Shown here: piece after piece, positions 20,237 to 22,394 of the stretch | How the letters are laid out: every line of letters begins with the position of its first letter | Numbering within the stretch: the stretch's first letter is position 1 | Notes under the pieces: model-generated | Told to the model about the DNA's origin: nothing | The model's input: the letters and a program-made list of their open reading frames with translations, nothing else | The model's database searches: none | DNA from: Rotaria socialis | Lineage: Eukaryota | NCBI GenBank assembly: GCA_905331485.1 | Contig: CAJNYT010000794.1 | Span: 69,240-108,233 of the forward strand | DNA length: 38,994 nt | Reading direction: 5' to 3' | Translations under genes and position numbers: made by a program

Positions 20237-21795
20237 TTTCAAAAATATATAATTTCTAAAAAACAACCCGCTTATCGTAATATGTGAAATACTATTGTTT
20301 TACAAAACTCTTTGCACATATAAAACCTATTCTCAAAACACATTGTTTTTAGGATGATTCATTTGAAGAAAAACAGCGCGTTCGATTTGCTTACCTGATT
20401 TCTGCGTCGACAGATGACACACTACGCTTTCGTTTACGATACATTGTCATAGTTTTTTGTTCACGTTTGCATCTTGGACGAGAGAAAAGGTAAAAGTGAA
20501 GAAAAAATAAATAGACCAAGTATCTGGAAATAATAAAACTATCGACGGTGTTTTAGAAAGAAAGGAAACGAAAAGGGAACAAATGCCAACGACTTGGCAA
20601 CCACGCGCACATATGAATATACTAGTGTTCTCCTGTGCGCACAATATTTCTTGGTTACCGTCTCTCGCTTCTTTTCTCGCAAAATGTTTTCTTCTTTGTC
20701 GTATTTCTGTTCTGGTAGGTAGCAGTGACAGTCGATGGATATATAGATCAATGGTAATGGAAAAAAAATTTTATTTGTTTTTGTTTACCGGTGATATTTG
20801 TTGAAAGTTTTGGAAGAAAACTCAAAATTTTTCTTACGAGCGAGAGCTTTCAGATGAAAGACCAGATTTGAAAATACAATGATACAATGATACAACATAG
20901 ATAGAAATAGTAGAAAAATTATGAGACTAGATTTATTTTCAGTAAGACTTTATTCTTCGTATATCACGTAGGCTATATTGTAATCAATCTTTGGAGAAAA
21001 GATATCTACTTCCCGATAAAGAGAGTTCACTATAAAATGGCTTACTCATATTTGTTGGAAATAATAGTAGAAAGTATTTCACTGGAGACAATTAGGTGAA
21101 TAAGTTATATTAATAGAGAAATGCTACGGCTTTAACGAGTAACAATTTTTTCTAAAGATTTGCTACGAAGAACTTTGGCTGGATTTTAATCAGTTTTTGA
21201 CATTTAAACTTTTGAGTCAACAGTTGTAACTGCTCTTTTGTTTCTGAATCATAATGATAGAAGCAAGATTCACCACCAGTTCCGATACCAAATACATGAG
21301 GGATTGACCTGCTGCAAATCTCTTCAGGGAATGATGACAAAATTGAATGCACCCTAGTTTTCGATCATTAATTAACTGATGTAGCACCTATGAAACATAG
21401 AATTTGTGTAGCTTTAAATAGTCATGCATAATTGAATTGATTACTGAGGCGCTAACACCAAAAACACCCCTTATTTGCTGACGTTTTGAACGAGGACCAT
21501 TTTCAATTATTGTTGGTATAGCATCAATTTTTGTTCGTTGATATATATTCGAGCGTGATCTGAACGGGAAGCATAATCAACACATGAATTATTTCGCTAA
21601 AATTCAGGAAGTCAATTTATGGCTGTGCAGTCAGGAGCTGCTACCTCCCTCCTTCATGTTTGCACCAAACGAACATGATTGCCCTTGTATGTTAACATAT
21701 GATGGGGAATTTGAATTTGCGGCAAAATCGATTTCATTAAAATCATCTCTATTTGTGACAAAATAAAAACTGTACTAGTATACCGCTATACTATA

Positions 21796-22010
21796 CGATG
21801 GGGTACCTAGTGTGGGTGTATGGAGGGGTACCTAGTGTGGATGCGAGGATGGGTACCTAGTGAGGGTGTGGGGAGGGGTACCTAGTGTGGGTGTGCGGAA
21901 GGGTACCTAGTGCCGGTGTTTGGAGGGGTACCTAGTGTGGGTGTGGGGAGGGGTACCCAGTGAGGGTGTGGGGATGGGGTACCTAGTGAGGGTGCGGGGG
22001 TGGTACCTTC
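21796..22010. repeat. Minisatellite of about 8.5 copies of a 25-26-bp unit, GGGTACCTAGTGTGGGTGTGGGGAG.
   Basis: Head-to-tail contiguous units have point variants (e.g. ...GTGTGGATGCGAGGAT, ...GTGCCGGTGTTTGGAG). Each unit carries a KpnI site GGTACC and the telomere-like GTGTGGGTGTGGGG core. The array ends '...GGGGGTGGTACCTTCTCCCCC'. Confidence 0.8.
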
Positions 22011-22056
22011 TCCCCCTTGCCGCTTTGTCTCTGTAAGGGATATGTAACATCTAGCT

Positions 22057-22150
22057 ACCGCTATACCGCACTGCCGCTATACCGCAATGCCACTATACCG
22101 CAATACCGCAATACCGCAATACCGCAATAACAATTGCGGTATTGCGGTAT
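22057..22150. repeat. 8-bp microsatellite (TACCGCAA)n of about 8 units, ending in the palindrome ACCGCAATAACAATTGCGGTATTGCGGTAT.
   Basis: The run reads 'ccgctataccgcactgccgctataccgcaatgccactataccgcaataccgcaataccgcaataccgcaataacaattgcggtattgcggtat'. Confidence 0.7.
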
Positions 22151-22394
22151 AAGCATTTTGATTTTGCCGCAAAATCAAATTCCCCACCAACTCATTTTTT
22201 CTCATTGTACAGTTAACATCGTTGACAAACGCAGTTTTTGTTAACAAAAGGGACAAGATCTTAATAAACCAATATCAACTCAGTTGTTTACTGTTAAGAC
22301 ACTTTCATTTTATAATATTTCCAGAGTGAGAAAAATTCACATGAGTTTTATCAGATCCGTTGGTTGTAGTCTAATCTATTTTTTCTTTTTCAAG

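What the first reader, a model, noticed from the sequence alone, without database searches (positions are those of the whole stretch)
21703..22186. IR-bounded satellite block (25-bp telomere-motif minisatellite plus 8-bp microsatellite) in the shared promoter region of the ART/NACHT pair
27-bp inverted repeats (1 mismatch) bracket about 8.5 copies of a 25-bp unit. Each unit contains GGTACC plus GTGTGGGTGTGGGG. The block also holds a (TACCGCAA)n run ending in a palindrome. It all lies 240-730 bp upstream of the NACHT ATG. Such hypervariable, G-rich (potentially G-quadruplex-forming) arrays in a promoter could confer copy-number-dependent or stochastic expression on an immune gene. Alternatively this is a small TE insertion.
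Basis: seen in the sequence. Interest (0 to 1): 0.6.

Follow-up and report, generated by a model that had tools for sequence, protein, structure and literature searches.

The report
Rotifer mini-transposon carrying a telomere-like minisatellite
The inverted-repeat-bounded satellite block is one copy of a small, non-coding mobile DNA element (a MITE) of the bdelloid rotifer Rotaria socialis, sitting just upstream of a NACHT gene; this is an ordinary kind of element, with the small twist that it carries a length-variable repeat built partly from the rotifer telomere motif.

Summary
In detail: the inverted repeats, the 25-bp x8.4 array and the (TACCGCAA)n run ending in a palindrome are all present. 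The window is Rotaria socialis.

The block is one copy of a dispersed, non-autonomous, foldback-like DNA transposon (MITE).
- The same 34-bp termini occur at six sites in metagenomic rotifer-like contigs. Three of the five complete sites have perfect 8-bp target-site duplications.
- In R. socialis the termini bound two left and four right junctions.
- The termini and the 8-bp motif arrays are family features.
- The 25-bp unit contains two TGTGGG bdelloid telomere hexamers. It was found only inside R. socialis copies (149 of 149 occurrences).

Unit number differs between loci and assemblies (8/13/16 here; 1/7/14 at an F-box gene), while flanks are nearly identical. This is either real hypervariability or assembly collapse.

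The window copy has no target-site duplication. No autonomous partner or base-resolved empty site was found. Two other species keep the ART-NACHT pair or the NACHT promoter block without the element.

A canonical G-quadruplex motif is absent; it appears only when loops up to 12 nt are allowed. Any regulatory effect is untested.

Verdict: new member of a known kind, modest interest.

The parts
21696..22193 (+). Whole element: a 498-bp non-autonomous TIR transposon (MITE, foldback-like), written here with the CATATGAT tip on the left.
   Evidence: Identity with copies that have other flanks starts exactly at 21696 (L004/L034-L040) and ends exactly at 22193, where four different right flanks follow ACCAACTC. 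The termini are homologous to those of metagenomic copies.
21696..21729 (+). Left 34-bp terminus: CATATGAT + GGGGAATTTGAATTTGCGGCAAAATC.
   Evidence: The CATATGAT tip is identical in the R. socialis F-box copy, and identical or one base different in the metagenomic copies (CATATCAT in L026). It forms the inverted repeat with 22160-22193.
21730..21799 (+). Left subterminal segment. It includes TTTGTGACAAAAT, which is homologous to the 36-bp unit of relatives, and an 8-mer remnant TATACCGCTATACTATACGAT at 21779-21799.
   Evidence: Alignment A1; TRF analysis of relatives.
21800..22008 (+). 25-bp minisatellite, 8.4 units, G-rich on the + strand (50% G). The consensus unit holds GGTACC plus two TGTGGG telomeric hexamers.
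   Evidence: TRF score 276; unit maps; motif counts. The unit is found only inside R. socialis element copies (149/149) and is absent from metagenomic relatives.
22009..22055 (+). Unique spacer between the two arrays. It is specific to the R. socialis subfamily.
   Evidence: It is present in both R. socialis loci and has no counterpart in metagenomic copies.
22056..22129 (+). 8-bp motif array (TACCGCAA / TACCGCTA / TGCCGCTA), 9.2 units. This is a family-wide subterminal repeat and the probable transposase-binding motif (inferred).
   Evidence: TRF. Homologous (ATAGNGGT)n/(TATACCNC)m arrays occur in all complete metagenomic copies. The same hexamer core TTGCGG lies inside the TIR (read directly from the sequence).
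22133..22151 (+). Inverted 8-mers (ATTGCGGT x2.2). They pair with 22094-22112 as a perfect 19-nt stem, the remnant of the family's central foldback.
   Evidence: the repeat finder pairs I2-I4; ssDNA fold z = -7.25; in relative L022 the equivalent stem is long, z = -21.4.
22160..22193 (+). Right 34-bp terminus: GATTTTGCCGCAAAATCAAATTCCCC + ACCAACTC. The reverse complement of the tip, GAGTTGGT, matches the GACTTCAT tip of relatives at 5 of 8 positions.
22219..22428 (+). Promoter-proximal block of the NACHT gene, conserved with an ortholog. This is context, not part of the element.
   Evidence: Local alignment with L031 covers window 22219-22385, and blastn carries it on into the CDS. Homology stops 25 bp from the element.
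22429..28959 (+). NACHT-like STAND NTPase ORF, 2176 aa (context).
   Evidence: It is 100% identical in 8 R. socialis contigs. UniRef names it 'NACHT domain-containing protein' and its homologues carry PF05729. The direct Pfam hit is E = 2.2e-4, below the curated cut-off.
19022..20236 (-). Ankyrin + arginine ADP-ribosyltransferase gene, 404 aa, divergent from the NACHT gene (context).
   Evidence: Pfam Ank and ART hits; annotated 404-aa product; UniRef name.

Best explanation
The block is one copy (window 21696-22193) of a family of short, non-coding cut-and-paste DNA transposons (a MITE with foldback character) found in bdelloid rotifers.

Shown:
- The family has 34-bp termini with two different 8-bp tips.
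- It has arrays of an 8-bp motif in direct and inverted orientation.
- Copies sit at many unrelated sites with exact boundaries.
- Most complete relatives have perfect 8-bp target-site duplications.

Inferred:
- A transposase encoded elsewhere (hAT- or P-like, judging from the duplication length) binds the termini and the repeated 8-bp motif and moves the element.
- The R. socialis subfamily acquired a 25-bp repeat containing two telomeric TGTGGG hexamers. That repeat now travels with the element and expands or contracts by replication slippage or unequal exchange.
- This copy landed in the ancestral ART-NACHT spacer, just upstream of the conserved NACHT promoter block. Its unmatched flanks probably reflect later recombination or deletion.
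- Any effect on NACHT or ART expression is a by-product and is untested.
For: - The TIR is dispersed. There are 19 metagenomic contigs representing 6 insertion sites.
- Perfect 8-bp TSDs (AGTAATTA, TACCTTTG, TGGCCGGT) occur at 3 of the 5 complete sites.
- In R. socialis the same element, with its 25-bp array, lies 638 bp upstream of an F-box gene in 9 contigs. Four different right flanks follow ACCAACTC exactly.
- Alignment shows homology at both termini, in the 8-mer arrays and in the subterminal segment.
- Relatives carry the same 8-mer arrays plus a 36-bp minisatellite of variable copy number.
- The element has no long ORF: the longest lying wholly inside it is 47 aa, and the longest overlapping it is 60 aa. 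It has no RNA family or tRNA match.
- The ART-NACHT pair exists without the element in L049, and the orthologous NACHT promoter exists without it in L031.
- One flank, an 18-bp array, is uninterrupted in L050 but abuts the element in L035 and L037.
- All 149 occurrences of the 25-mer lie inside element copies.
Against: - The window copy has no target-site duplication (TATGTTAA vs ATTTTTTC). No R. socialis flank pair forms one.
- Two of the five complete metagenomic sites also lack one.
- No autonomous copy or transposase was found, so the superfamily is unassigned.
- No base-resolved empty site was obtained for this locus.
- The outer 8 bp of the two tips are not inverted repeats of each other, which is unusual for TIR elements.
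- The organism behind the metagenomic contigs was not identified.
Confidence: 0.85

Rival explanations
1. Exapted regulatory module. The G-rich, length-variable array acts as a tunable cis-element for the NACHT and/or ART gene, through G-quadruplexes, nucleosome exclusion or binding of telomere-repeat proteins. Unit number would then set or randomise expression. This does not exclude a transposon origin.
For: - The element ends 235 bp upstream of the ATG and 25 bp from the only promoter block conserved with an ortholog.
- Unit number differs between near-identical isolates: 8, 13 and 16.
- The G-rich strand is the NACHT sense strand, and relaxed G4 motifs (loops 3, 1 and 10 nt) occur at 21851-21903 and 21925-22000.
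- A second copy also lies upstream of a gene.
Against: - There is no canonical G4 motif with loops <=7.
- Orthologous loci function without the element.
- In a compact genome almost any intergenic insertion lies near a promoter.
- The length differences may be assembly collapse, since several assemblies have gaps or contig ends inside the array.
- No expression, TSS or chromatin data were available.
Confidence: 0.1
2. A locally arisen neutral minisatellite that happens to be bracketed by an inverted repeat. It would not be mobile.
For: Only one copy is present in the 39-kb window. This copy has no target-site duplication.
Against: - The identical element, with exact boundaries, occurs at other loci in R. 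socialis.
- The termini occur at six further sites, with 8-bp duplications, in metagenomic DNA.
Confidence: 0.02
3. A relic of telomere biology: an interstitial telomeric sequence or a telomerase 'healing' product that later became a tandem array.
For: - The unit consensus holds two TGTGGG hexamers, the bdelloid telomeric repeat (PMC7943196).
- The window has other short telomere-like sites at 3724, 18493 and 37858-37932.
- An 18-bp repeat containing GGGTGTGG abuts another copy.
Against: - There are never more than two consecutive hexamers.
- Every unit also holds non-telomeric GGTACCTAG.
- The array lies inside a mobile element with defined termini and is found only there.
At most, this reading explains where the unit's seed came from.
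Confidence: 0.03

Closest known systems
MITEs carrying 'hitchhiking' tandem repeats. Examples listed in the review PMC6947457: insect MITEs with (GTCY)n microsatellites (Coates et al. 2011), Xstir tandem repeats riding on a Xenopus MITE (Hikosaka & Kawahara 2004), and bivalve BIV160/MITE-like elements.
   Same: - Short, non-coding, TIR-bounded and dispersed.
- Internal micro- or minisatellite that is lineage-specific, rides with the element and varies in copy number.
   Different: - Here the minisatellite unit contains two copies of the host's telomeric hexamer.
- The element also has palindromic 8-mer arrays.
- No kb-scale satellite derived from it was seen.
Tetris / DAIBAM foldback elements of Drosophila virilis (PMC4079207).
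   Same: - Apparently non-autonomous and modular.
- Foldback structure with internal tandem repeats.
- Rearranged forms, with related MITEs sharing only the terminal part of the TIR.
   Different: - Tetris repeats are about 220 bp and lie inside long TIRs.
- Here the TIRs are 34 bp, and the repeats (8, 25 and 36 bp) are internal or subterminal.
Galileo (P superfamily) of Drosophila (PMC3573991).
   Same: - Tandem repeats that expand and contract and are proposed as secondary transposase-binding sites.
- Chimeric copies bounded by non-matching flanks instead of identical TSDs, attributed to ectopic recombination or gene conversion.
- Many two-TIR non-autonomous copies.
   Different: - Galileo has 7-bp TSDs, TIRs of hundreds of bp, and a known THAP-type transposase.
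- Here the TSD is 8 bp, the TIRs are 34 bp, and no transposase is known.
hAT-type and P-type MITEs (established knowledge: both superfamilies make 8-bp TSDs; P has a 31-bp TIR and hAT has short TIRs starting YARNG).
   Same: - 8-bp target-site duplication.
- Subterminal repeated short motifs.
- Size of 0.5-1 kb.
   Different: - The tips CATATG.../GACTTC... do not fit the hAT YARNG consensus.
- The three TSDs do not fit nTnnnnAn.
- No linked transposase was found, so superfamily membership is open.
Promoter tandem repeats that tune expression, such as yeast promoter repeats and the human INS VNTR (own knowledge; not tested here).
   Same: A length-variable repeat immediately upstream of a gene.
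   Different: No evidence here of any expression effect, and the repeat is cargo of a mobile element that is also present at other loci.

Membership tests
MITE / non-autonomous class II (TIR) transposon | Terminal inverted repeats | tested here: met
   The arms are 30 nt and 93% complementary. The 26-nt core is conserved in all copies.
MITE / non-autonomous class II (TIR) transposon | Multiple dispersed copies with unrelated flanks and exact boundaries | tested here: met
   There are 6 sites in metagenomic contigs and 2 left plus 4 right junctions in R. socialis.
MITE / non-autonomous class II (TIR) transposon | Target-site duplication of fixed length (family level) | tested here: met
   Perfect 8-bp duplications occur at 3 of the 5 complete metagenomic sites.
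MITE / non-autonomous class II (TIR) transposon | Target-site duplication at the window copy itself | tested here: not met
   The flanks are TATGTTAA and ATTTTTTC. The nearby near-repeat TGTATGTTAACAT / TGTACAGTTAACAT is out of register with the boundaries.
MITE / non-autonomous class II (TIR) transposon | Small size and no coding capacity | tested here: met
   The element is 498 bp. The longest ORF wholly inside it is 47 aa, and the longest overlapping it is 60 aa, all low-complexity translations. The TAG in each 25-bp unit closes every reading frame within 75 bp (read directly from the sequence).
MITE / non-autonomous class II (TIR) transposon | Empty (unoccupied) site in a related genome or haplotype | tested here: inconclusive
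   The element is absent from the orthologous promoter in L031 and from the syntenic spacer in L049, but the non-coding DNA is too diverged to align across the site. At another junction there is a presence/absence contrast, L035 versus L050, which could be a chimeric assembly.
MITE / non-autonomous class II (TIR) transposon | A cognate autonomous element with the same termini | tested here: inconclusive
   None was found among the 19 TIR-bearing contigs; site B is a solo end. There were no hits in the viral or prokaryotic collections. A whole-genome DNA search of R. socialis was not possible.
hAT superfamily | 8-bp TSD | tested here: met
hAT superfamily | TIR beginning YARNG and target consensus nTnnnnAn (recalled from the literature) | tested here: not met
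   The tips are CATAT and GACTT / GAGTT. The TSDs AGTAATTA, TACCTTTG and TGGCCGGT do not fit.
hAT superfamily | hAT (BED / DDE / hATC) transposase | not testable with these tools
   No autonomous copy could be retrieved.
P superfamily (P, Galileo, 1360) | 7-8-bp TSD, TIR of about 31 bp or more, and subterminal or internal repeats | tested here: met
   The TSD is 8 bp, the termini are 34 bp, and there are 8-mer, 25-bp and 36-bp arrays. These features are not exclusive to the P superfamily.
P superfamily (P, Galileo, 1360) | THAP-domain transposase | not testable with these tools
   No autonomous copy could be retrieved.
Foldback (FB-like) elements | Long inverted arrays of short tandem repeats that let the strand fold back on itself | tested here: inconclusive
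   Relatives meet this: L022 has a central stem of more than 100 nt and z = -21.4. The window copy keeps only a 19-nt stem, z = -7.25. The inverted arrays are central, not terminal as in Drosophila FB.
Interstitial telomeric sequence | An uninterrupted run of the telomeric hexamer (TGTGGG)n | tested here: not met
   There are at most two consecutive hexamers, in one unit only, and 6 hexamers in 209 bp.
Canonical G-quadruplex motif | G3+ N1-7 G3+ N1-7 G3+ N1-7 G3+ | tested here: not met
   There is none in the element with loops <=7. Two tracts appear with loops <=12.

The most novel reading that the evidence does not exclude
A mobile MITE subfamily has picked up a minisatellite made from the host's telomeric hexamers and distributes it to gene-upstream positions, here a NACHT gene and an F-box gene in neighbourhoods rich in immune-type genes. 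There, its rapid length changes and exchange between copies would create heritable expression or structural variation among otherwise near-identical clones of an asexual animal. That would make it a portable 'contingency' module.
Probability: 0.06. Interest if true: 0.7.

Novelty: new member of a known kind. Interest (0 to 1): 0.3.

Why it matters
Mainly for annotation and interpretation.
- The block should be masked as a transposon rather than read as a bespoke promoter element.
- It is a breakpoint for short-read assemblies of R. socialis. Contigs end inside it, scaffolds have gaps in it, and different assemblies join it to different flanks.
- It adds a characterised MITE/foldback family, with defined termini and 8-bp duplications, to the sparse catalogue of bdelloid DNA transposons.
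- If the array length differences and alternative flank joins are real, the element would be a convenient marker, and possibly a source, of rapid structural change between near-clonal lineages of an asexual animal. That bears on how such lineages generate variation near immune-type genes.

Tried and rejected
1. TSD at the window copy. There is none at the true boundaries. The eye-catching TGTATGTTAACAT / TGTACAGTTAACAT pair overlaps the element tip on the left and lies 14 bp outside it on the right, so it is not a TSD. A piggyBac-type TTAA reading fails because the F-box copy is flanked by AATC.

2. Empty-site searches. None gave an alignment across the insertion point.
- NACHT ortholog L031.
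- ART orthologs L048 and L049.
- Paralogous F-box loci L043-L047 and L050-L056. In the paralogues, homology stops 178-180 bp from the element.

3. Autonomous partner.
- The 'site B' group looked like a longer copy but is a solo end running into host-like genes.
- TIR scans of the prokaryotic and viral collections found nothing.

4. Known RNA or SINE origin. Rfam gave only far-sub-threshold miRNA-hairpin hits on the 8-mer palindrome, and there is no tRNA.

5. Canonical G4 motif. None.

6. Using L003, L004 and L008 as length alleles. Rejected, because each has an N (a scaffold gap) inside the array.

7. Retrieving the LDL-receptor-side locus to pair flanks.

8. Relatedness of the second foldback at 37761-37995 to this family. 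They share only the telomere-like motif.
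Full report

Yes.
- Inverted repeat: 21700-21729 pairs with 22160-22189 (30 nt, 93% complementary). The arm occurs nowhere else in the window, and no shuffle produced a match.
- Tandem Repeats Finder reports a 25-bp unit x8.4 at 21800-22008 (score 276, consensus GGGGTACCTAGTGTGGGTGTGGGGA). It also reports TACCGCAA x9.2 at 22056-22129, followed by an inverted ATTGCGGT x2.2. The last two form a perfect 19-nt stem.
- GGTACC is present in every unit. The exact 14-mer GTGTGGGTGTGGGG occurs only once, so it is a consensus feature.
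- The block lies 243-726 bp upstream of the ATG at 22429.

**2. Organism and neighbouring genes.**

- The 2176-aa ORF is encoded, 100% identical, on eight NCBI contigs of Rotaria socialis. GCA_905331015.1 is sample Rs_AK11 of Nowell et al. 2021 (PMC7943196).
- That paper gives TGTGGG as the bdelloid telomeric hexamer, so 'telomere motif' is apt.
- The minus-strand gene at 19022-20236 has ankyrin repeats and an ART domain.
- The large ORF is a NACHT-like STAND NTPase. NACHT is its best Pfam family, but below the curated cut-off (E = 2.2e-4). Its homologues carry PF05729.
- The two genes are divergent. This arrangement is old: L049, labelled Adineta steineri, has the same pair with a 1454-bp ATG-to-ATG spacer, against 2192 bp here. 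L049 has no element and no TGTGGG hexamers in the spacer.

**3. What the block is.**

*Metagenomic copies.* One exact-match scan of metagenome contigs with the TIR (one degenerate position) returned 19 AT-rich contigs. Sorted by flank, they represent six insertion sites.
- All share eight more bases outside the GGGG. The termini are therefore 34 bp.
- The two tips differ: GACTTCAT-GGGG... at one end and CATATGAT-GGGG... at the other.
- Three of the five sites with both ends have perfect 8-bp target-site duplications: AGTAATTA, TACCTTTG and TGGCCGGT. Two have none.
- Complete copies are 589-1011 bp. They differ mainly in the length of internal arrays. One is (ATAGNGGT)n followed by the inverted (TATACCNC)m, the same 8-mer as in the window, forming a long foldback. 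The other is a 36-bp minisatellite derived from the inner TIR (fold z = -21.4).
- None contains the 25-bp unit.

*R. socialis copies.* The window's copy has the same polarity. Its left tip is CATATGAT (21696-21703). The reverse complement of its right tip is GAGTTGGT (22186-22193).
- A contig whose left flank differed (L004) led, through its F-box gene, to a second locus in nine R. socialis contigs.
- There the same element, with the 25-bp array, lies 638 bp upstream of the F-box ATG.
- Its left junction is constant. After ...ACCAACTC, four different sequences follow in different assemblies.
- This fixes the element's limits at 21696 and 22193. It also shows there are at least four right ends and two left ends in the species.
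- Alignment A1 shows homology between R. socialis and metagenomic copies at both termini, in the 8-mer arrays and in a subterminal TTTTGTsACAAAT segment. The 25-bp array and the adjoining unique spacer (22009-22055) are specific to R. socialis.
- In about 0.6 Mb of collected rotifer DNA, all 149 matches to the 25-mer lie inside element copies.
- The element has no meaningful ORF, no Rfam family above threshold and no tRNA.

I conclude that it is a MITE-type, foldback-like, non-autonomous DNA transposon.

**4. Length variation.**

- Gap-free versions at the ART/NACHT locus have 8 units (window), 13 (L032) and 16 (L001 and L002, from two independent assemblies). The first five and last two units are shared.
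- At the F-box locus there are 1, 7 and 14 units. The 14-unit form is identical in two assemblies.
- The 3-kb flanks differ by only 0-1 SNP.
- Several assemblies have a scaffold gap or a contig end inside the array.
- So either the array mutates far faster than its surroundings, or the shorter versions are collapsed. I cannot separate these. The agreement between independent assemblies on 16 and 14 units suggests that those lengths are real.

**5. What does not fit.**

- The window copy has no target-site duplication (TATGTTAA vs ATTTTTTC), and no R. socialis flank pair makes one.
- ART-NACHT synteny predates the element, so this copy is not an inter-locus rearrangement breakpoint. Recombination between two nearby insertions, or a deletion next to the element, would explain the flanks. 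That is inference.
- Galileo provides a documented precedent. [quoted passage not shown] It also has expanding and contracting internal repeats, proposed as secondary transposase-binding sites (PMC3573991).
- The alternative right flanks at the F-box locus could be real exchanges between copies, or they could be assembler misjoins. One of them (L004) is clearly joined across an N.
- One flank gives a presence/absence contrast. An 18-bp array (CGGGTGTGGATGTCAGTG) runs for 12 uninterrupted units in L050. In L035 it stops after 7 units at the element's tip, within 2.86 kb of 99.97% identity.
- No autonomous copy was found. The superfamily is therefore open: the 8-bp TSD fits hAT or P, but the tips do not fit the hAT consensus.

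**6. Function.**

- The NACHT ortholog in L031 (77.5% nucleotide identity) shares only window 22219-22428 upstream of the ATG. Homology stops 25 bp from the element, and the left flank has no counterpart (score 21 against a shuffled mean of 22).
- The element therefore sits immediately upstream of the conserved promoter-proximal block and is not needed by the ortholog.
- Strict G4 motifs are absent. With loops up to 12 nt, two tracts appear on the NACHT sense strand.
- Nothing here tests expression. In a compact genome, proximity to a promoter is the default for any intergenic insertion.

**7. Comparison and novelty.**

- MITEs with hitchhiking tandem repeats are well known (examples in PMC6947457).
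- So are foldback elements with internal repeats: Tetris (PMC4079207) and Galileo.
- This is a new member of that kind.
- The particular point is that the cargo repeat is built around two host telomeric hexamers and is found only on the element.

Interest is modest.

Noticed in passing
window 37761-37995: A second small foldback, unrelated to the first. It has 55-nt inverted arms (93% complementary) around a 125-bp centre. The centre holds a G-strand telomere-like run (GGGGTGGGGGTGAGGGTGTGGG) followed by the C-strand run CACACCCACACCCACACC. It was found only at this locus in the collected DNA, and it shares only the telomere-like motif with the studied element.
   Followed up: partly
window 3724-3771; window 18493-18504: Other short telomere-like sites. 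At 3724-3771, (TGTGGG)2 is followed 12 bp later by TACCACACACCCACA, forming an inverted pair with GGTACC between. At 18493-18504 there is a lone (TGTGGG)2, about 520 bp beyond the ART stop codon. Several such sites in 39 kb suggest a telomere-repeat-rich, possibly subtelomere-like, neighbourhood.
   Followed up: no
L035 8731-8889 (also L037; L050 about 18000-18250, minus strand): An 18-bp tandem repeat CGGGTGTGGATGTCAGTG, which shares AGTGnGGGTGTGG with the 25-bp unit. It abuts the element's right tip in L035 and L037, and runs uninterrupted for 12 units in L050. It is followed by about 500 bp rich in GGAATTCC/CCGGAATT motifs, probably another repeat family.
   Followed up: partly
L034-L040 versus L050-L056 (R. 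socialis F-box / PARP / TIR_2 region): The F-box P0028 and P0029 loci are 92-96% identical paralogous segments. Their homology begins 178 bp from the element. Contig L035 switches into an inverted copy of the P0029 locus at about 11333. This is either a real structural haplotype or a chimeric assembly. The neighbouring genes are immune-type (TIR_2, Macro/PARP, F-box).
   Followed up: partly
L008/L033 (GCA_965120245.2), inside the 25-bp array after an N: A 57-bp non-repeat stretch (TCTCAAAAAAATTGTAGATTACAACATC...) sits inside the array next to a scaffold gap. It is probably a gap-filling or scaffolding artefact.
   Followed up: no
L048 5376-6395: A Tc3/mariner-type transposase ORF (HTH_32, DDE_3) lies about 2.4 kb downstream of the ART ortholog in an ENA metagenome contig. 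It is unrelated to the studied element.
   Followed up: no
window 15697-16406: About 700 bp of AT-rich low-complexity arrays, (AATTT)n and 32-bp units, between the vault-protein and ART genes.
   Followed up: no
window 4444-14500: The window is rich in defence- or stress-type gene fragments on the minus strand: NHL-repeat, MACPF, major vault protein (spliced, 893 aa in the annotations), then ART and NACHT.
   Followed up: no
L031 about 400-900: The region upstream of the NACHT ortholog holds its own repeated ~130-bp segments (GAAATGGATGAAG...ATTCCATTTCTGCT). It is unrelated to the window's element, so a different repeat occupies the equivalent position.
   Followed up: no
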